From a virus (lineage: Duplodnaviria; Heunggongvirae; Uroviricota; Caudoviricetes), in the IMG/VR virus record IMGVR_UViG_2529293139_000012: DNA of 12,539 nucleotides. One strand, 5' to 3'. The notes beneath the pieces were generated by a model that had not been told where the DNA came from, ran no database searches, and saw only the letters and a program-made list of their open reading frames with translations. The position numbers and the translations under genes were made by a program. Numbering within the stretch: position 1 is the first letter of the stretch; every line of letters starts with the position of its first letter. This document shows, one piece after another, positions 3,138 through 12,539 of this stretch.

Positions 3138-3220
3138 ATGAAAATGCAAAAACTAGCTTTTTCCGCGCCGTTCCCGCCCCGTGGCAGGCCACCTCACCGG
3201 GAGGACCCACCCAAAAAAGG
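3138..3220. repeat. Copy 1 of a GC-rich ~75-80 bp conserved non-coding element, upstream of the small terminase operon
   Basis: Near-identical to 6487-6560 (ATGAAAATGCAAAAAC.AGC.TTTTTCCGCGCCGTTCCCGCCCCGTGGCAGG.CAC..CACCGGGAGGACCCA). The plus-strand ORFs over the two copies share nucleotides but diverge in frame after about 5 codons, so the conservation is not protein-coding. Confidence 0.75.
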
Positions 3221-3293: not shown

Positions 3294-3965
3294 TCAGCGA
3301 CCAATCACCACAATCTGGCCGCCATCCCCTTCATCTGCCGTGCTGATCTCTTGCGAAATCACCCGCGACCCGACGCGCATTTCACCGTACAGAACAGGCA
3401 GAACATTGCCCTGGGCAACCATGTTATCCAGTGAGGAGAAATAGGTGTTCTGCTTACCGTTATCCGTTGTCTGTGTACGGGGAGTTCTGGCTTTCGGTGC
3501 CAGCATCTGCGCCACACCACCGAGCACCATACTGGCACCGAGAGAAAACAGGATGCCGGTCATACCACCGGCCCCAATGGCTGCCCCCCATGCTGCAAGG
3601 GTGGCTCCGGCGGTAAAGAATGATCCGGCAATGGCGGCAGCCCCCAGGACAATCTGGAATACGCCACCTAACTTGGCCCCGGCGACTCTGGGAACAATAT
3701 GAATCACAGCGCCATCAGGCAGAGTCTCATGTAACTGCGCCGTTAACCCGGACGTGCTGACGTCCCGCCCGGCAATCCGTACCTGATACCAGCCGTCGCT
3801 CAGTTTCTGACGAAACGCCGGGAGCTGTGTGGCCAGTGCCCGGATGGCTTCAGCCCCCGTTTTCACACGAAGGTCGATGCGGCGACCAAATCGTTGTAAA
3901 TCCCCGTAAAGGCAGATGCGTGCCATGCCCGGTGACGCCAGAGGGAGTGTGTGCGTCGCTGCCAT
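3294..3965 (-). CDS. Lambda gpI-like tail assembly protein (223 aa)
   Basis: Intact ORF with purine-rich stretch upstream of the ATG. N-terminal 'MAATHTLPLASPGMARICLYGDLQRFGRRIDLRVKTGAEAIRALA', a Gly/Ala-rich hydrophobic middle and C-terminal '...VVIGR' match my recollection of lambda tail assembly protein I. It is flanked by a capsid gene and a terminator rather than K and J homologs. Confidence 0.65.
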   Translation of the reverse strand: MAATHTLPLASPGMARICLYGDLQRFGRRIDLRVKTGAEAIRALATQLPAFRQKLSDGWYQVRIAGRDVSTSGLTAQLHETLPDGAVIHIVPRVAGAKLGGVFQIVLGAAAIAGSFFTAGATLAAWGAAIGAGGMTGILFSLGASMVLGGVAQMLAPKARTPRTQTTDNGKQNTYFSSLDNMVAQGNVLPVLYGEMRVGSRVISQEISTADEGDGGQIVVIGR

Positions 3966-4054: not shown

Positions 4055-5968
4055 TCATGCTCCATTCGATTTCAGCAATCCACGATAATCGAGGGCCGCG
4101 ACACCTGCATCTATGCGCACCTTCCAGGCGACACCATCAACAGTAAAGCCCACCTGCTCCTCAAGATATGGCGTATCCATACCATCAAGATAAGCGACTT
4201 CTATTGTGTCCATCCCCTTAGCTGCGGCTACATACCATTCCTTGCTATTGGCCTTATCAAGACGTGGCTCAACAATTACTTCTGCCATATCTTTCACAAC
4301 GTTAATGATGCCGGGGTTCTGATTGATAGTGCCCTCATCACCAACCGGAAAGACTGATGACGATGACAGAATGGCGCGACGCGCGGCAGATTCCAGCGCG
4401 GCAGGGACCAGAACAAAAGCAGGGGTAATATTCAGTGAGTCGCCGTTAGCATCCTCCTGGAGGCGCATCAGCTTACGGGCTTCATCAAGCCCCACCATGT
4501 CCATATCCTTCGCAATAAGATTTTTATGATCGGCATGGAATAACGCTTTACCATCCGTAAACTTGCCGTTGCTGGTTAACAGGAGATAAACCAGATTGCC
4601 AACTGTTCTGGCGGCTGCGCGTCCCATCGCCATGGGGATTGTAGTTAACTGGGTCAGGTCATCGTTGATAATGGCCTGACGGGTAACGGAGAAAATATTC
4701 CCGTACGTGGCCAGCGCAATAGGTACACCTTTATCGCTGGTGGTGATGTATTTATATTCCGCACCTTCCGGTACTTTATCCAGCTTTGAAAAACCATTCA
4801 GACCAACGCGCTTTGCTTCATGAAAGTTTGAAAGCGAACCGGTACGCGTCCATTTCTGGAACGTTTCGCCGCTGTCCTGCCAGCCTTTCAGTACAGATTT
4901 TTCAGCCCCACCAGCCAGAATATGAGAAAAATCACTGCTGCTGTGTGTAAAAGCCGCATTAACAACCTGCGAGCGATTAATAAAACCACTCACAGTGATA
5001 CCACGATCAACCAGTGATGCCTGGGCCATTTCAAAAAGGCTCATCATCGCGTAAGGGTTGCCTCGTTCAGGGCGTTCATACCCAAGACGGGAATAAAGCC
5101 CCTGACGAATTGCATCACCTGTTATGTTTCCGTTTCCGGCATAGATATGAGCCGGGGTATTTTTATTGGATGGCGTGGACTCGCGCCCCAGCTCGTTCAA
5201 CAGCTTTTCACGGGCCATTTCCGGTGTACATGATGCATCTTCCAGACACGCCATTTTGATCCCGTCGTAACGACTGCCGAACAGGCTAAACACTTCACTT
5301 ATTCCATTGATGCGTTTCTGTTCATTACCAGCAATATTTGCCGCTCCCTGTGGCGGTGTAATCATTCCTTTAATGGTTTCCGGCATATGTAAAAAATCTC
5401 CTGTGCGCTTCGATTCAATTCGCGCCATTGCTCTGACGGATGGCAACAATTCATCAGCAAAACCGTGCTTAAGGCATTCTTTCCCGTCCATCCAGGTTTC
5501 ATCTTCCAGCATGGCGGTAATTTCCTGTGCTGATTTGCCCGTTTTTCTGGCATAAGCAGGGACTAACACGGTTTCCACCTTATCCAGCAAATCAGCATAA
5601 TCACGCATATCACCAGCATTTCCGCCAGAGATACCCCACGGCTTATGTATCATCATCATGGCGTTTTCCGGCATCACAACACGATCGCCAGCCATTGCGA
5701 CCACCGAAGCCATTGAAGCCGCAACACCATCGATATAAACCGTAATGTCTGCCGGATGATTCCGTAGCAGGTTATAGATGGCGATGCCTTCAAACACATC
5801 ACCACCTGGTGAATGGATCCTCAGATTGATATGTGAAACATCGCCAAGGGCTTTCAGGTCTTCCGCGAACTGCTTTGCAGTAACACCGAAGCCGCCAATC
5901 TCCTCATAGATAGATATATCCGCCGCTCCGCGAACATCCGCCGCCTTAATGGTGTACCAGCGATTCAT
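4055..5968 (-). CDS. Fusion of ClpP-like (S14) prohead protease with a major-capsid-like domain (637 aa)
   Basis: N-terminal ~200 aa carry ClpP-type motifs (IYEEIGGFG, HSPGGDVFEGIAIYNLL, IDGVAASMASVVAMAGDRVVMPENAMMMIHKPW). The remaining ~430 aa look like a phage major capsid domain, possibly Mu gpT-like; the family cannot be fixed without a search. Confidence 0.75.
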   Translation of the reverse strand: MNRWYTIKAADVRGAADISIYEEIGGFGVTAKQFAEDLKALGDVSHINLRIHSPGGDVFEGIAIYNLLRNHPADITVYIDGVAASMASVVAMAGDRVVMPENAMMMIHKPWGISGGNAGDMRDYADLLDKVETVLVPAYARKTGKSAQEITAMLEDETWMDGKECLKHGFADELLPSVRAMARIESKRTGDFLHMPETIKGMITPPQGAANIAGNEQKRINGISEVFSLFGSRYDGIKMACLEDASCTPEMAREKLLNELGRESTPSNKNTPAHIYAGNGNITGDAIRQGLYSRLGYERPERGNPYAMMSLFEMAQASLVDRGITVSGFINRSQVVNAAFTHSSSDFSHILAGGAEKSVLKGWQDSGETFQKWTRTGSLSNFHEAKRVGLNGFSKLDKVPEGAEYKYITTSDKGVPIALATYGNIFSVTRQAIINDDLTQLTTIPMAMGRAAARTVGNLVYLLLTSNGKFTDGKALFHADHKNLIAKDMDMVGLDEARKLMRLQEDANGDSLNITPAFVLVPAALESAARRAILSSSSVFPVGDEGTINQNPGIINVVKDMAEVIVEPRLDKANSKEWYVAAAKGMDTIEVAYLDGMDTPYLEEQVGFTVDGVAWKVRIDAGVAALDYRGLLKSNGA

Positions 5969-6486: not shown

Positions 6487-6560
6487 ATGAAAATGCAAAA
6501 ACCAGCCTTTTTCCGCGCCGTTCCCGCCCCGTGGCAGGTCACTACACCGGGAGGACCCAT
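6487..6560. repeat. Copy 2 of the GC-rich conserved non-coding element, upstream of the capsid operon
   Basis: Aligns with 3138-3220 over about 75 nt with a handful of substitutions and a 1 nt indel. Confidence 0.75.
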
Positions 6561-9070: not shown

Positions 9071-9391
9071 TTATCCCCGATTTGAATCAGTATTCGCTTT
9101 CTTTATGGCATTTAATGCATCTGTGGCATTTTCAATGGTGCACCGTAACGAAATATCAAACTGCCCAAGCATTGCCAGTAACAAACCGATATTACCCATA
9201 TCAATGCGCATGGCCTTTTCGTCATAGTCCTCATTTTCTGACGCATGCCACATCAGGCTACCAATTGACGCAACAGCCATTGATATATTGTCAGTAGCCC
9301 CATCAGCAGCGGAATAAACCTTTTTAGCAATATCATGCTCACAGTTAAAATGCGGATTAATCAGGTACTGGTAATTTGACATATCAGGCAT
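9071..9391 (-). CDS. Hypothetical protein (106 aa)
   Basis: ORF with AGGGGG Shine-Dalgarno about 8 nt upstream of the ATG; its start overlaps the stop of the preceding ORF by 8 nt. Confidence 0.45.
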   Translation of the reverse strand: MPDMSNYQYLINPHFNCEHDIAKKVYSAADGATDNISMAVASIGSLMWHASENEDYDEKAMRIDMGNIGLLLAMLGQFDISLRCTIENATDALNAIKKANTDSNRG

Positions 9392-9587
9392 GGCACACCC
9401 CCTGACGAATACGGGCGGCGAATACCATCACGTAGCCAGCCGGGGATTGCTGGCGTGCTTCCTGTTCGCTGGTGGCCTCAATGGTAATCACGCGCGGTTG
9501 TGCCGTGCTCAGGGCGATAAAACGCCAGATGTATTTATTCAGGTCGTGCGAGTACCGCCCTTGCGGGTGTGTGGTATGATTTAACAT
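9384..9587 (-). CDS. Hypothetical protein (67 aa), first gene of the leftward small-ORF and primase string
   Basis: Start taken at ATG 9585-9587 with GAGGT Shine-Dalgarno 5 nt upstream. The longer 221-aa ORF-track form would run antisense through the divergent gene and operators. Confidence 0.45.
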   Translation of the reverse strand: MLNHTTHPQGRYSHDLNKYIWRFIALSTAQPRVITIEATSEQEARQQSPAGYVMVFAARIRQGVCHA

Positions 9588-9688
9588 AGCTACCTCGATA
9601 CTATCGTTATCGTTGGTGGTTAGAAGCCCGGTTAGTGTTCCCGCACTACCGGGCTTCGCTGTATTTAATGGTTGCGTATTTTTAATGC

Positions 9689-9731
9689 GGTACGTACCAT
9701 TTAATTTCAGTTTATAACGATGGTACGTACC
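9689..9731. promoter_or_regulatory. Pair of 10 bp perfect palindromes GGTACGTACC (putative operators) in a divergent promoter region
   Basis: Exact copies at 9689-9698 and 9722-9731, 33 bp centre to centre, between the start of the 67-aa minus-strand ORF and the plus-strand small ORF. Confidence 0.55.
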
Positions 9732-9732
9732 A

Positions 9733-9915
9733 ATGCAAGAAGAAAATGTGAAACCAAAATTTGATCGCTCCGGCAGCACAAAGAAAAACATCCGCTTCGA
9801 AGACACATTGTTGCAACAAATTAACGAAGTTGCTGGGCCTGGTAATTTCAGCTCATGGGTAAAAAATGCTTGTCGTGATAAGCTACGCAAAGAAGGCATA
9901 GAACCCAAAGGCTGA
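9733..9915 (+). CDS. Small putative regulatory/DNA-binding protein (60 aa), possibly YlcI/YnfO (DUF3950)-like
   Basis: The only plus-strand gene in the island; followed by a plus-strand terminator and preceded by the operator pair. 'NIRFEDTLLQQINEVAGPGNFSSWVKNACRDKL' resembles the DUF3950 pattern as recalled (low certainty). Weak ribosome binding site. Confidence 0.45.
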   Translation: MQEENVKPKFDRSGSTKKNIRFEDTLLQQINEVAGPGNFSSWVKNACRDKLRKEGIEPKG

Positions 9916-10009
9916 CAGCCAACCAGCAAGCCAGCACACTGATCACATTGCCCACCAGCCGCAAATGTGGCATTGTTGGTGATGCGTTCAAGTTTAGTGT
10001 GTATCCATT

Positions 10010-10038
10010 GGCGACCGCCCCCGGTCGCCTTTGTTTTA
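10010..10038 (+). terminator. Rho-independent terminator for the plus-strand small gene
   Basis: GGCGACCG-cccc-CGGTCGCC hairpin followed by TTTGTTTTA. Confidence 0.6.
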
Positions 10039-10055
10039 TGTGCCATCACTCCCCC

Positions 10056-10265
10056 TTACACCGTCTGCGTTCTGCGAGTGGATGCAAGATAAGCATCGAG
10101 ATCAGTGCGCATATACAGCACTTTGCGACCAAGCTTATGGAAAGGGATTTTTACCTTGCCAGTACACGCCCAGTTCGCCAGTGTTTGATTGTTAACGCCA
10201 AGGTAGGCAGCAGCTTCAGCACGTGTAAGGCGGTCAGTTGATAAATCAGATTTCTTTAAATTCAT
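10056..10265 (-). CDS. AlpA/excisionase-family HTH DNA-binding protein (about 69 aa)
   Basis: Start taken at ATG 10263-10265 (MNLKKSDL); the ORF-track form starts 3 codons earlier at a GTG. HTH 'LTRAEAAAYLGVNNQTLANWACTGKVKIPFHKLGRKVLYMRTDLDAYL' has the Xis/AlpA architecture. Confidence 0.6.
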   Translation of the reverse strand: MNLKKSDLSTDRLTRAEAAAYLGVNNQTLANWACTGKVKIPFHKLGRKVLYMRTDLDAYLASTRRTQTV

Positions 10266-10407
10266 ATCTATCACCGTGTACGTCTAAGTAACAACGGTGA
10301 TAAATATCAATCAATGAGTATTTTGTTTTTAGCCCAATAGCCAGTTGCTGTGGGGCTGTTACCAGTTATTTAGCCTCAATAGCCAGCTATTAAAATACCG
10401 TAGCCAG

Positions 10408-11133
10408 CTATTGGGGGTGAACAAGCTCAAACGAAGAGTATTTATCAGGCTTTGGTGGTTGTGCCCCTGATTCTTTAATCCATCTATCTAGCGTGTTTTT
10501 ACTTACTTTCCCATGGTAGTAAACAGAAAGCTCGTTCAATAAACCTGTTTTACTGGCTTTAGGGTACTTTTCCCATGTTAGTTTAATTACGTGCATAACT
10601 TCATTGTAATAATGATTTCTTGGTTTGCGCGCTTTTTCTTTCTGTGATAAGGATAAAGCATCCTTTATTTTTTTATCTTTTTCATGGTTCGATATAATTT
10701 CTTCAAAAAAATCATTAAGCAATAACTCAACACCAACTCTAGTAAGTTTGTCTGCGTGATTACGCATTCCGACATGGTACAATGCAACTGCTGAATTTAA
10801 AGTATCGACAACCTGACAAGATAGTTTACTATCAAATATTAAAAAACCACACGAATCAATTTTTGCAGCTAATTCAATAGGATATTGCTCGATTTCACTT
10901 GATTCTAAACCATAACACAAAAGAAATTCTCTTGTTGGATATTTTGATTTATAAAAATAATCTCTTATATCATCAATCAAGCGTTTTATAGCCTCTATGG
11001 TGGAGTTTCTCGGGGATAAAGATACAGGAACGTTTAAAACTGAAGATTCTCGCCCACCAGTAATTAAATCATTCATAACCGAATAAATAATATATTGTTT
11101 GACCGATATATTGTTATCATCCATATATGTCAT
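10408..11133 (-). CDS. AT-rich hypothetical protein (241 aa), candidate accessory/cargo gene
   Basis: ORF overlapping the integrase 3' end by 17 nt. Visibly much more AT-rich than the island genes on either side, with Lys/Asn/Ile/Tyr-rich codon usage. No recognisable catalytic motif; the C-terminus (KNTLDRWIKESG) may be HTH-like. Confidence 0.55.
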   Translation of the reverse strand: MTYMDDNNISVKQYIIYSVMNDLITGGRESSVLNVPVSLSPRNSTIEAIKRLIDDIRDYFYKSKYPTREFLLCYGLESSEIEQYPIELAAKIDSCGFLIFDSKLSCQVVDTLNSAVALYHVGMRNHADKLTRVGVELLLNDFFEEIISNHEKDKKIKDALSLSQKEKARKPRNHYYNEVMHVIKLTWEKYPKASKTGLLNELSVYYHGKVSKNTLDRWIKESGAQPPKPDKYSSFELVHPQ

Positions 11134-12539
11134 TCTTTTCTTGTACTATAGCAAATAGTAAACGACGTTTTTCATCATCACTCATGCCCTCCAGTGCGGA
11201 AAGCAATTGCGCATCGATAGATTTTTTACTCTCCACCAGCCCGGCATGTTCCTGAATTGCCCGTTCTATCCGTGACGCTGGCTCCAGCAATTCATCAGCA
11301 CCAAAATGTAAATACCCCTGCGTTACGTCAGCACTTCGCATAGTACGGTGATTCATCAGGCGCTTGAGGATGTAATTGCCCACGCCCACCAGTTCGGCAA
11401 CCGTTCCGAACGTCCGGCGCGCATCGTGCCATTTGAATGGTACAGGGGAGAGCATTTCATCGTTCGACTCTGAAACGGTAGCCGCGCTTATCCGGTCTAT
11501 GATGTGCCGTGTCTCCTGAATAACGCCCTTCACACCAGGAAACACCAGCACATCATCAGCAGCTTTGTTTTTTAGCCTGCGAAGAAACATTTTCCGCAAC
11601 GTATCAGTGATCGGCAGTTCAAGCGGATCCCCGTTTTTCGTGGTGTCTATCCAGAAAAAAACGACCGCCCATATTCACGCGATCCCACGTAAGGCCAAAA
11701 ATTTCTGATTTCCTCAGTCCGGTAAAAAGCGCCATTTCCACGGCATCGCATACCGTCACCGCTATATCATCCCTTTCCTGTTCGCCCTGGTCGCGCACAG
11801 CAGCTACAGCAGCAAACCAGCGGGGAAAATCATGCAGGCGGATACGTTCCGTTTTTCTTACCGTTCCGTGCCACTGGCGCTTGGTGCTCAGTACCAGAGT
11901 CGGCGGATCCGGTAAAAGAGTATTACCCGCATCATCACGGTAATGATCATGCGCAAACCGACACACAGCACGTAGCGCACGCGCCCATAAATCGGCCTGT
12001 GCCTTGCTTCCTGTACCAACCCCAGCCCGTAACGTGGTTTTATCAGCACCGAACCATACAGCCCCATCAGTGATGGCCTTATGCCGTTGTTCCACCCGTT
12101 CGCGGGAAATACTGGCGAGGGTATGGGCCATCCAGTCACCGGAATAATTCTGTAATATGCTGCGGTACTGTTTTTCTGTGGCGGGTTTCAGGCGGTGGCC
12201 ACGATTTTTTACGTAGGCGTCAATCGCCTCACTCAGCGTTATCATGGCCTTGTTGTTAGTGCGCTTTGCTATGTTCGGATTTATCCCCGTTGTGGCGACT
12301 TCGCCAAGGAGTTCCATAGCTTTAGCCCTGGCATTATCCACGCTCAGATCAGGAAAACGCCCCAGCGTTGCACGAATAAATTTTCCGTTACGCTTACGGG
12401 AAATGCAGAAACTTTTCACACCAGACGAACCTACACGGACACGCAGCCCGTTAACCTCCGTATCACCATATTCGACCTGTCCATGTTCCGGCGTTGGCAG
12501 TTCTGCAATTTTTACTTTAGAGAATCTGAATAATTTCAC
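11117..12539 (-). pseudogene. Tyrosine site-specific integrase (P4-like family), interrupted by a frameshift in an A7 run at 11655-11661; N-terminus runs off the window
   Basis: The 306-aa upstream frame carries the first Arg box (TGLRKSEIFGLTWDRV); the 160-aa downstream frame carries HDARRTF and the catalytic Tyr region (RSADVTQGY). Removing one base from the homopolymer joins them as ...GRFFWIDTTKNGDPLELPITDTLRKMFLRRLK.... Confidence 0.85.

What the first reader, a model, noticed from the sequence alone, without database searches (positions are those of the whole stretch)
9689..9731. Twin GGTACGTACC operators in the divergent control region
Two exact 10 bp palindromes 33 bp apart (three helical turns) lie between the only rightward gene and the leftward small-ORF and primase string. 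This looks like the island's regulatory switch, where a repressor or helper-responsive activator would bind.
Basis: seen in the sequence. Interest (0 to 1): 0.55.

Follow-up and report, generated by a model that had tools for sequence, protein, structure and literature searches.

The report
Twin operators of a DUF3950 repressor
The two identical 10-bp palindromes are real and are almost certainly the binding sites of the small uncharacterised protein encoded right next to them, which probably keeps this phage-satellite island's replication genes switched off.

Summary
GGTACGTACC occurs exactly twice in the window (9689-9698 and 9722-9731), against 0 in 200 shuffles. The window is an E. coli satellite-type island with integrase, an AlpA-like HTH protein, D5 primase and a capsid fusion.

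In about 70 related loci from more than 20 genera, two GGT-N4-ACC sites lie 30-35 bp apart, and the second ends 0-1 nt before the ATG of a DUF3950 (YlcI/YnfO) gene.

The 4-bp core of the sites changes together with residues 17 and 19 of that protein:
- K..N pairs with ACGT
- M..H with AGTT
- M..N with AGGT
- V/A..N with ATAT
- RRT with TCGA
- RKI with TCAT

The core does not track the AlpA-like or Icd-like neighbours. A prediction made from the residues (Hafnia) and a reverse search by operator alone (12 of 12 relevant hits) both held.

The protein looks like a ribbon-helix-helix protein, but this is weakly supported. Conserved promoter-like elements put site 1 on the -10 of the protein's own promoter and site 2 in the spacer of the leftward promoter. 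I infer an autoregulated repressor of the leftward Icd-like/primase operon.

The same cassette, together with a SymR-like antisense RNA, also guards symE toxin genes. Nothing has been tested experimentally. This is a new member of a known kind.

The parts
9689..9698 (.). Operator O1 (GGTACGTACC), the palindrome distal to the DUF3950 gene
   Evidence: Exact match. A GGT-N4-ACC site sits at the same position (-44 from the ATG) in nearly all related loci. It overlaps the predicted -10 (TACCAT) of the rightward promoter.
9722..9731 (.). Operator O2 (GGTACGTACC), ending 1 nt before the ATG of the DUF3950 gene
   Evidence: Exact match. It is conserved at -11/-10 from the ATG in related loci. It lies in the spacer of the predicted leftward promoter.
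9733..9915 (+). Gene for the 60-aa DUF3950 / YlcI-YnfO protein, the predicted cognate operator-binding protein (ribbon-helix-helix-like)
9672..9700 (+). Predicted rightward promoter P_R: -35 TTGCGT (9672-9677), 17-bp spacer, -10 TACCAT (9695-9700). The -10 shares TACC with O1.
   Evidence: It is the best-conserved plus-strand promoter-like position over 18 loci (mean PWM score 6.0, 14 of 18 above 4). It was missed by the strict consensus scan. Inference only; no transcript data.
9711..9738 (-). Predicted leftward promoter P_L: -35 TTGCAT (9738-9733, the reverse complement of the ATGCAA start of the DUF3950 gene), 16-bp spacer containing O2, -10 TATAAA (9716-9711)
   Evidence: It is the best-conserved minus-strand promoter-like position over 18 loci (mean 5.5, 11 of 18 above 4). 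Reading the spacers printed, I find the -10 to be TATAAT in several of the M..H loci. Inference only.
9575..9668 (+). SymR-like cis-antisense small RNA (about 9588-9668) with its -10 TATGAT (9575-9580). It is antisense to the Shine-Dalgarno sequence and 5' UTR of the leftward operon.
   Evidence: Rfam RF01809 at 34.7 bits, below the gathering score of 61, E 2.4e-5. RNAalifold on 24 loci including K-12 symR gives 22 pairs, 15 with compensatory changes, and G-U pairs that are valid only on the plus strand. The -10 aligns with the experimentally mutated symR -10 (PMC1891008).
9384..9587 (-). Icd-like gene (67 aa), first gene of the leftward operon (Icd-like, hypothetical, DUF4222, D5 primase) that the operators are inferred to control
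   Evidence: NCBIfam NF033153 at 70 bits. Annotation of the identical L73 locus. The GAGG Shine-Dalgarno sequence is read directly from the sequence.
10010..10037 (+). Intrinsic-terminator-like hairpin plus T-run downstream of the DUF3950 gene
   Evidence: GGCGACCG-CCCC-CGGTCGCC followed by TTTGTTTT. It would make the rightward gene a one-gene transcription unit.

Best explanation
The two palindromes are the operators of the 60-aa DUF3950 (YlcI/YnfO) protein encoded immediately to their right. I infer that this protein is a ribbon-helix-helix-type dimer. One dimer would sit on each GGT-N4-ACC site, with strand residues 17 and 19 reading the central 4 bp and the invariant Arg21 and Ser15-Thr16 reading the invariant outer GGT/ACC. 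O1 overlaps the -10 of the protein's own promoter, which gives autoregulation. O2 fills the spacer of the leftward promoter that drives the Icd-like/DUF4222/primase operon, which gives repression of the satellite's replication module. The two promoter footprints overlap, so the 43-bp unit acts as one compact bidirectional switch. Translation of the first leftward gene is additionally held down by a SymR-like antisense RNA. What is shown here: the sites exist, their geometry is conserved, and they co-vary specifically with the protein. What is inferred: the fold, the promoter positions, the sign of regulation, and any cooperation between the two dimers.
For: 1. Exact twin sites, with none in 200 shuffles.
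2. Conserved architecture in about 70 loci from Escherichia, Pantoea, Serratia, Xenorhabdus, Photorhabdus, Proteus, Yersinia, Erwinia, Enterobacter, Hafnia, Aliiglaciecola and others. There are two GGT-N4-ACC sites 30-35 bp apart, and the second ends 0-1 nt from the ATG, while the spacer sequence diverges.
3. Specificity covariation in 52 dereplicated loci. KKN pairs with ACGT (GCGC in one distant homolog), MKH with AGTT, MKN with AGGT, V/AKN with ATAT, RRT with TCG(A/C), and RKI with TCAT. On a tree built with those columns masked the residue triple changes at least 9 times, and KKN and MKH are interleaved.
4. Each site keeps its own internal dyad through compensatory changes: A4/T7 becomes T4/A7 or G4/C7. 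This is expected for a symmetric dimer.
5. Prospective test: Hafnia MKN in a satellite context was predicted to have AGGT and has it.
6. Reverse test: the operator pair alone retrieved 13 IMG/VR contigs. Twelve have a DUF3950 gene with STKKNIRFED directly downstream. The 13th is an unrelated repeat.
7. The AlpA-like and Icd-like neighbours are uncoupled from operator type.
9. Conserved promoter-like elements place O1 on a -10 and O2 in a spacer.
10. The homologous cassette sits in front of symE toxin genes. In K-12 symE the LexA repressor box occupies the equivalent position (PMC1891008), so a repressor is the functional analogue.
Confidence: 0.7

Rival explanations
1. The sites do bind the DUF3950 protein, but it acts as an activator (or dual regulator) of the leftward operon rather than as its repressor. 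For example, it could recruit RNA polymerase when a helper phage is present.
For: The leftward -35 (TTGCAT) and the rightward -35 (TTGCGT) are imperfect, and the strict scan finds no promoter. Weak promoters often need activators. Gram-negative PICIs are reported to be activator-driven through AlpA (PMC6092414).
Against: O2 fills a 16-bp spacer and O1 overlaps a -10. These are positions typical of repression. RHH proteins are, from general knowledge, mostly repressors. The same cassette guards symE toxins, where K-12 uses the LexA repressor at the same place.
Confidence: 0.12
2. The two copies function as the arms of an RNA (or cruciform DNA) hairpin. This would be a 12-bp stem with a 19-nt loop just upstream of the start codon, controlling translation, processing or read-through, rather than acting as protein operators.
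For: Folded as RNA, 9684-9740 gives -20.5 kcal/mol with z = -5.0. In several loci with asymmetric cores the two sites are in inverted orientation, which keeps perfect complementarity.
Against: Two copies of any palindrome are automatically complementary. A hairpin does not require each arm to be a palindrome, yet every variant keeps its internal dyad. Arms are mismatched in Xenorhabdus loci (GGTACGTACC/GGTACATACC and GGTTCGCACC/GGTTCGAACC) and are in direct orientation in five M..H loci. The hairpin model does not explain covariation with protein residues 17/19. With the inferred start sites the two arms are not on the same transcript. No T-run follows on either strand.
Confidence: 0.07
3. The palindromes are bound by the AlpA-type/excisionase-family HTH protein (10056-10265, minus strand) or by the Icd-like protein, not by the DUF3950 protein.
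For: AlpA activates PICI genes in EcCICFT073 (PMC6092414). The Icd-like protein matches PHROG families labelled 'transcriptional repressor'.
Against: The same operator (GGTACGTACC) occurs with three AlpA/HTH families, of which the window's type has no detectable similarity to the other two. Conversely, the window's AlpA type (70-75% identity) occurs with ACGT, AGTT and ATAT operators. An Icd-like homolog is absent from many loci that share the operator, and the symE-type loci have neither protein nearby.
Confidence: 0.04
4. The sites are recognised by a host or helper-phage factor, for example a phage DUF3950 homolog such as the unannotated lambda ORF, and the adjacent gene is only a passenger.
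For: Lambda and many lambdoid phages encode DUF3950 homologs. The helper-derived inducer of Gram-negative PICIs is unknown (PMC6092414).
Against: Operator cores track the residues of the locally encoded protein, in hosts from Vibrio-like Alteromonadales to Enterobacterales. The lambda homolog has a different strand motif (TTRNIRFP) and no twin sites upstream.
Confidence: 0.05

Closest known systems
Arc / Mnt repressors and their operators in the immI region of phage P22 (ribbon-helix-helix)
   Same: Both involve very small proteins (53-83 aa) with a strand-helix-helix layout. Both have short dyad-symmetric operator subsites overlapping closely spaced divergent promoters, with autoregulation. 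The weak alignment register puts the co-varying residues 17/19/21 on Arc Q9/N11/R13 (the Arc contacts are from my recollection of the Arc-operator crystal structure). Arc is the top Foldseek hit.
   Different: There is no significant sequence or profile similarity. Here two 10-bp palindromes lie 33 bp apart, rather than two adjacent subsites in a 21-bp operator. The element is a chromosomal satellite/toxin cassette, not the phage antirepressor region.
CopG (pMV158) and ORF56 (pRN1) plasmid copy-control RHH repressors
Stl/Rpr master repressor and the stl-str divergent region of Gram-positive PICIs (SaPIs)
   Same: A regulator gene is divergent from the excision/replication operon of a phage satellite, with operators in the short intergenic region (PMC6092414).
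   Different: Stl proteins are large HTH repressors unrelated to DUF3950. Anti-repression by a helper protein is documented for Stl but is unknown here. [quoted passage not shown]
symE-SymR locus of E. coli K-12 (LexA box plus cis-antisense RNA)
   Same: [quoted passage not shown] DUF3950-linked copies of the cassette actually precede symE genes.
   Different: K-12 uses a host LexA box and has no adjacent regulator gene. Here a dedicated DUF3950 gene with twin operators replaces it, and in the window the cargo is a satellite replication operon rather than symE. The Rfam score is below the gathering threshold (34.7 against 61).
AlpA/Vis regulation of P4 and E. coli PICIs
   Same: The island type is the same: integrase, an AlpA-like HTH protein and a primase.
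   Different: The palindromes do not track AlpA type. The window's protein is an excisionase-family HTH_17 rather than PF05930.

Membership tests
DUF3950 / YlcI-YnfO family (Pfam PF13132, NCBIfam NF041551) | Profile match above the curated cutoff | tested here: met
   PF13132 at 33 bits against a cutoff of 25. NF041551 at 31.1 against 30. The identical RefSeq locus is annotated 'YlcI/YnfO family protein'.
Ribbon-helix-helix (Arc/MetJ/CopG) DNA-binding proteins | Strand-helix-helix fold forming an intertwined dimer with a two-stranded antiparallel sheet | tested here: inconclusive
Ribbon-helix-helix (Arc/MetJ/CopG) DNA-binding proteins | Sequence or profile membership in an RHH family | tested here: not met
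   No PDB sequence hit. RHH_1 at E 0.12 in 1 of 22 members. hhalign to Arc, CopG and Mnt gives Prob 2% or less. The only link is indirect: a paralog homologous to DUF3950 (Prob 95%) hits Pfam Arc at E 0.05.
Ribbon-helix-helix (Arc/MetJ/CopG) DNA-binding proteins | Base recognition by alternate residues of the N-terminal strand; operators built of two or more short dyad or repeat subsites | tested here: met
   This is indirect evidence. Residues 17 and 19 of the S-T-x-K-x-I-R-F motif co-vary with the central 4 bp, and the invariant R21 goes with the invariant GGT/ACC. There are two dyad sites per locus.
Ribbon-helix-helix (Arc/MetJ/CopG) DNA-binding proteins | Operator overlaps the regulator's own promoter (autoregulation) | tested here: inconclusive
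   The conserved TTGCTT-17-TACCAT element overlaps O1, but no transcription start data exist and the strict scan was negative.
Gram-negative PICI / capsid-forming PICI satellites | Integrase, AlpA-type regulator, primase-replicase and (for cf-PICI) its own capsid genes, inserted at a specific attachment site | tested here: met
   Integrase, an HTH_17 excisionase-family protein, a D5 primase and a ClpP-capsid fusion lie next to tRNA-Ile. YlcI/YnfO and Icd are listed among cf-PICI accessory genes (PMC13612085). The island looks decayed: DUF1441 is a pseudogene in L73 and the integrase is split in the window. No portal or terminase ORF was recognised, but the remaining ORFs were not scanned for them.
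Gram-negative PICI / capsid-forming PICI satellites | Induction and packaging dependent on a helper phage | not testable with these tools
   Requires experiments.
PICI master repressor (Stl/Rpr type) | Regulator divergent from the replication operon, repressing it; relieved by a helper-phage protein | tested here: inconclusive
   The divergent position is met. There is no sequence relation to Stl. Repression and helper relief are untested.
SymR antisense RNA (Rfam RF01809) | Covariance-model score at or above the gathering threshold | tested here: not met
   34.7 bits against 61 in the window. 41.0 and 34.8 bits in L007 and L002.
SymR antisense RNA (Rfam RF01809) | Two-hairpin RNA encoded opposite the RBS and 5' end of the regulated gene, with its promoter inside that gene | tested here: met
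   The alignment with K-12 symR gives 22 pairs, 15 of them compensatory, with plus-strand G-U pairs. The -10 TATGAT aligns with the validated symR -10. The RNA starts 1 nt beyond the CAT of the Icd-like gene.
AlpA/Vis operator sites | Site sequence tracks the AlpA-type protein of the element | tested here: not met
   Operator type and AlpA family are uncoupled.

The most novel reading that the evidence does not exclude
DUF3950 (YlcI/YnfO) proteins are a previously unrecognised family of Arc-like repressors with a readable two-residue specificity code. In capsid-forming and related Gram-negative phage satellites they would be the 'missing' master repressor that keeps the replication operon silent until a helper phage intervenes. 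The same portable cassette (repressor, twin operators and a SymR-like antisense RNA) was exchanged between satellites and symE type I toxin loci. Lambdoid phages carry homologs that might cross-talk with it.
Probability: 0.35. Interest if true: 0.75.

Novelty: new member of a known kind. Interest (0 to 1): 0.6.

Why it matters
[quoted passage not shown] A dedicated repressor with mapped operators in the capsid-forming/AlpA-type satellites would give a concrete handle on how these elements stay silent and how helpers induce them.

It would also assign a function to a domain of unknown function (DUF3950/YlcI/YnfO) that is present in E. coli K-12 prophages and in lambda. The natural series of operator/residue pairs (K-N, M-H, M-N, V/A-N, RRT, RKI) is a ready-made specificity table that can be tested by simple swaps.

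The link to symE/SymR shows that a transcriptional repressor and an antisense RNA travel together as a control cassette for toxic or replication genes.

Tried and rejected
- The strict sigma-70 consensus scan of 9350-10350 found no promoter. I replaced it with a comparative PWM scan.
- Rfam at gathering threshold found only the tRNA. A weak scr4677 hit on the minus strand was judged spurious because it comes from a Streptomyces family and is a partial match.
- A profile search of PDB sequences gave only chance hits, SMYD1 and eIF4G2.
- Pfam scans of 22 family members gave no RHH family beyond one hit at E 0.12.
- hhalign to Arc, CopG and Mnt was not significant. I used it only for the alignment register.
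- AlpA-like and Icd-like proteins were tested as binders and rejected by the uncoupling analysis.
- I looked for twin sites upstream of the lambda DUF3950 ORF and found none.
- Near-matches to the palindrome elsewhere in the window (4227 and 11841, 2 mismatches each) are at chance level.
- One IMG/VR hit (L075) is an unrelated repeat.
- One Rfam call failed on its size limit.
- The L079 coordinates were wrong, and I ignored that row.
- Literature searches for DUF3950/YlcI/YnfO, cf-PICI repressors and SymR in islands found no prior functional description.

Full report
**1. The observation**

GGTACGTACC is present at 9689-9698 and again at 9722-9731. These are the only exact copies in the window, and none appeared in 200 dinucleotide-preserving shuffles. 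Matches with up to 2 mismatches elsewhere are at chance level. The loose pattern GGTNNNNACC is not enriched either.

The copies are 33 bp apart, start to start. They extend to 11 nt as a direct repeat and to 12 nt as an inverted repeat.

They lie in the 145-bp gap between the ATG of a leftward gene (9587) and the ATG of the rightward 60-aa gene (9733). Site 2 ends one base before that ATG.

**2. Context**

The window is 99.98% identical to a chromosomal island of E. coli strain L73. The gene order is as follows:
- tRNA-Ile
- DUF1441
- a lambda-I-like tail assembly gene
- a ClpP-protease/capsid fusion
- D5-type primase
- DUF4222
- a hypothetical gene
- an 'Icd-like' gene (9384-9587, minus strand)
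- the control region
- a 60-aa DUF3950 / YlcI-YnfO gene (9733-9915, plus strand)
- an excisionase-family HTH_17 'AlpA-like' gene (10056-10265, minus strand)
- a 241-aa hypothetical gene
- integrase

This is the layout of Gram-negative phage-inducible islands, in particular capsid-forming ones. A 2026 survey lists 'YlcI/YnfO family protein' and 'Icd' merely as accessory genes of such islands (PMC13612085). [quoted passage not shown]

**3. Comparative anatomy**

I retrieved homologs of the 60-aa protein with their DNA, from single-protein look-ups and from one scan of 185,579 species genomes. Nearly every locus has two GGT-N4-ACC sites. The distal site starts at -44/-45 from the ATG and the proximal one at -11/-10. 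Start-to-start spacing is 33 bp in most satellite-type loci, 34-35 bp in a second group, and 30-31 bp in two distant cases.

The 23-bp spacer diverges freely. In a second E. coli island only 89% identical over the region, both sites are untouched while flanks and spacer differ.

**4. Which protein binds**

The outer GGT/ACC is invariant. The central four bases come in discrete types, and each type goes with a particular pair of residues in the motif S15-T16-x17-K18-x19-I20-R21-F22 of the adjacent protein:

| Residues 17-19 | Operator | Where seen |
|---|---|---|
| K-K-N | GGTACGTACC | window, Pantoea, Serratia, Xenorhabdus, a MAG |
| M-K-H | GGTAGTTACC | not itemised |
| M-K-N | GGTAGGTACC | not itemised |
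| V-K-N and A-K-N | GGTATATACC | not itemised |
| R-R-T | GGTTCG(A/C)ACC | not itemised |
| R-K-I | GGTTCATACC | not itemised |
| K-K-N (52%-identical protein) | GGTGCGCACC | Aliiglaciecola |

In 52 dereplicated loci the association has no exception at the level of the main core. The only partial case is Buttiauxella, where M-K-N pairs with one AGTT site and one ACCT site.

The rest of the protein is strongly conserved. On a neighbour-joining tree made with the three columns masked, the residue triple changes at least 9 times for 7 types, with K-K-N and M-K-H interleaved. The pairing is therefore not a single inherited event, although trees of 60-residue proteins are poorly resolved.

Changes at site positions 4 and 7 are compensatory within each site (A/T to T/A or G/C). 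This keeps each site a dyad, as a symmetric dimer would require.

Two further tests held:
- **Prediction from the residues.** A Hafnia protein with M-K-N in a satellite context was predicted to have AGGT cores, and it has GGTAGGTACC-N23-GGTACCTACC.
- **Reverse search by DNA alone.** GGTACGTACC-N20-26-GGTACGTACC in 2.9 million viral contigs gave 13 hits. Twelve are followed within 1 nt by a DUF3950 gene carrying STKKNIRFED, and the thirteenth is an unrelated repeat.

The neighbours do not track the operator. The same GGTACGTACC pair occurs with three AlpA/HTH families, of which the window's type has no detectable similarity to the other two. The window's AlpA type, at 70-75% identity, occurs with ACGT, AGTT and ATAT operators. 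An Icd-like homolog is present in only a minority of loci.

I therefore take the 60-aa protein as the cognate binder, with a confidence of about 0.85 for this step.

**5. What kind of protein**

Databases give only DUF3950 / YlcI_YnfO_N / PHROG 949 'unknown function'. Sequence searches of the PDB and Pfam give no RHH membership.

With a 111-sequence alignment, AlphaFold2 predicts an extended N-terminus followed by two helices, 24-34 and 39-53 (pLDDT 74). That is the expected appearance of a ribbon-helix-helix monomer, whose strand only forms in the dimer.

hhalign to Arc and CopG is also not significant. Its register, however, puts residues 17/19/21 on Arc Q9/N11/R13 and CopG R4/T6/T8. From my recollection of the Arc-operator and CopG-DNA structures, those are the base-contacting strand residues.

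There is also a bridge through a paralog. In Pantoea dispersa a 57-aa paralog with an Arc-like strand, PQYQMRL (Arc has PQFNLRW), sits between the operators and the DUF3950 gene. It is homologous to DUF3950 (hhalign Prob 95%, E 3e-8). It weakly matches Pfam Arc (E 0.05). It has its own twin GGTCGTTACC-N21-GGTAATTACC abutting its ATG.

I rate the RHH fold at about 0.65.

**6. How it probably works (inference)**

A position-weight scan of 18 diverse loci, aligned on site 1, finds one outstanding promoter-like position on each strand:
- **Plus strand:** TTGC(T/G)T-17-TACCAT. In the window these are 9672-9677 and 9695-9700. The -10 shares TACC with O1.
- **Minus strand:** TTGCAT-16-TATAA(A/T). In the window these are 9738-9733 and 9716-9711. 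O2 occupies the spacer, and the -35 is the reverse complement of the conserved ATGCAA start of the DUF3950 gene.

Parts of both elements overlap sequence conserved for other reasons. The independent components are the TTGCTT hexamer and the spacer TATAAT. The strict consensus scan found nothing.

If these assignments are right, the starts lie near 9707 (rightward) and 9704 (leftward), and the two polymerase footprints overlap. A dimer on O1 would then shut the regulator's own promoter, and a dimer on O2 would shut the Icd-like/primase operon. Whether the two dimers cooperate over three helical turns is unknown.

The rightward gene has no Shine-Dalgarno sequence and a very short leader. It is followed by a terminator-like hairpin at 10010-10037.

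**7. A second layer and a wider family**

Rfam gives a sub-threshold SymR hit on the plus strand at 9588-9660 (34.7 bits against a gathering score of 61).

Aligning this stretch from 23 loci with K-12 symR gives a two-hairpin structure with 22 pairs, 15 of which show compensatory double changes. Many G-U pairs are valid only on the plus strand. The window's TATGAT (9575-9580) aligns with the symR -10 that Kawano et al. inactivated experimentally (PMC1891008).

The RNA is antisense to the Shine-Dalgarno sequence and 5' UTR of the Icd-like gene.

In the large M-K-N group (Enterobacter, Kosakonia, Trabulsiella, Buttiauxella and others, often near tRNA-Sec) the leftward gene is a SymE toxin (PF08845, E 1e-16). 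Its upstream region is homologous to the window's.

In K-12 symE, which has no DUF3950 gene, the LexA box lies just beyond the SymR terminator, where the twin operators lie here.

So the repressor, twin operators and antisense RNA form a portable cassette that guards either a toxin or a satellite's early operon. The LexA analogy is my main argument that DUF3950 represses.

**8. Rivals**

- An RNA hairpin between the two copies would be stable (-20.5 kcal/mol, z -5). That follows automatically from duplicating a palindrome. It does not explain the internal dyads or the protein covariation, it is broken in several lineages, and the arms are probably not co-transcribed.
- Binding by AlpA-like or Icd-like proteins is rejected by the uncoupling analysis.
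- An activator role cannot be excluded without reporters.
- A helper-encoded DUF3950 homolog might interact. Lambda has an unannotated 64-aa homolog next to cos. It has no twin sites, and this remains speculation.

**9. Verdict**

The mechanism is of a familiar kind, a small autoregulated dimeric repressor with dyad operators at divergent promoters. The protein family had no known function, and I found no published description of this operator pair, its specificity series, or its link to symE/SymR.

Everything beyond sequence comparison still needs experiment.

Noticed in passing
window 9575-9668 (+): A SymR-like cis-antisense small RNA lies opposite the RBS and 5' UTR of the Icd-like gene. 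It scores below the Rfam threshold (34.7 against 61 bits) but is supported by 15 compensatory pairs across 24 loci and by alignment of its -10 with the validated symR -10.
   Followed up: yes
L035 2032-2652 and similar loci (L025, L045, L051, L053 and others): The same DUF3950, twin-operator and SymR-like cassette precedes SymE toxin genes (PF08845), often near tRNA-Sec. In E. coli K-12 symE (L069 2921-2940) a LexA box occupies the operator position.
   Followed up: partly
window 10260-10311: An inverted repeat, TATCACCGT-N16-ACGGTGATA, lies immediately upstream of the annotated ATG (10265) of the AlpA-like gene and partly over it. The arms resemble lambda operator half-sites. It may be the control site of the alpA-like promoter.
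   Followed up: no
window 10335-10420: There are two exact copies of CAATAGCCAG (10335-10344 and 10377-10386; minus-strand reading CTGGCTATTG) and a third, related TAGCTGGCTA, between the 241-aa gene and the AlpA-like gene. They could be recombinase, excisionase or AlpA binding sites.
   Followed up: no
window 11117-12539: The integrase is split into two reading frames here (11619-12539 and 11117-11599), whereas the 99.98%-identical L73 island has an intact 474-aa gene. The window differs from L73 by one mismatch and two indels. This copy may be immobile, or the sequence may contain an error.
   Followed up: partly
window 3138-3209 and 6487-6559: A GC-rich repeat of about 75 nt (93% identical) occurs twice in intergenic regions of the island, after DUF1441 and upstream of the primase. 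No Rfam family matched at the gathering threshold.
   Followed up: no
L070 200-394 (lambda 48303..48109, minus strand): Phage lambda carries an unannotated 64-aa DUF3950 homolog (strand motif TTRNIRFP) about 200 bp from the right cos end. There are no twin GGT-N4-ACC sites upstream. Many lambdoid phages have it.
   Followed up: partly
L085 1280-1494; L066 2330-2497; L086 1330-1497: In Pantoea dispersa and Orbaceae an extra Arc-like paralog (strand PQYQMRL or PFQFRL) is inserted between the operator region and the DUF3950 gene. In L085 the paralog has its own twin GGTCGTTACC/GGTAATTACC sites. In the Orbaceae loci the upstream repeats are of a different type, and the DUF3950 gene has no sites of its own.
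   Followed up: partly
window 3294-3965 and 4055-5968: A lambda-I-like tail assembly gene and a tail-protein fragment (annotated in L73) sit next to a ClpP-protease/major-capsid fusion, and I recognised no portal or terminase. The packaging module of this island looks mosaic or decayed.
   Followed up: no
L017 3332-3398 (-): The Rfam family 'int-alpA RNA' (RF02996) matches above its gathering score in the Photorhabdus relative. It did not match in the window.
   Followed up: no
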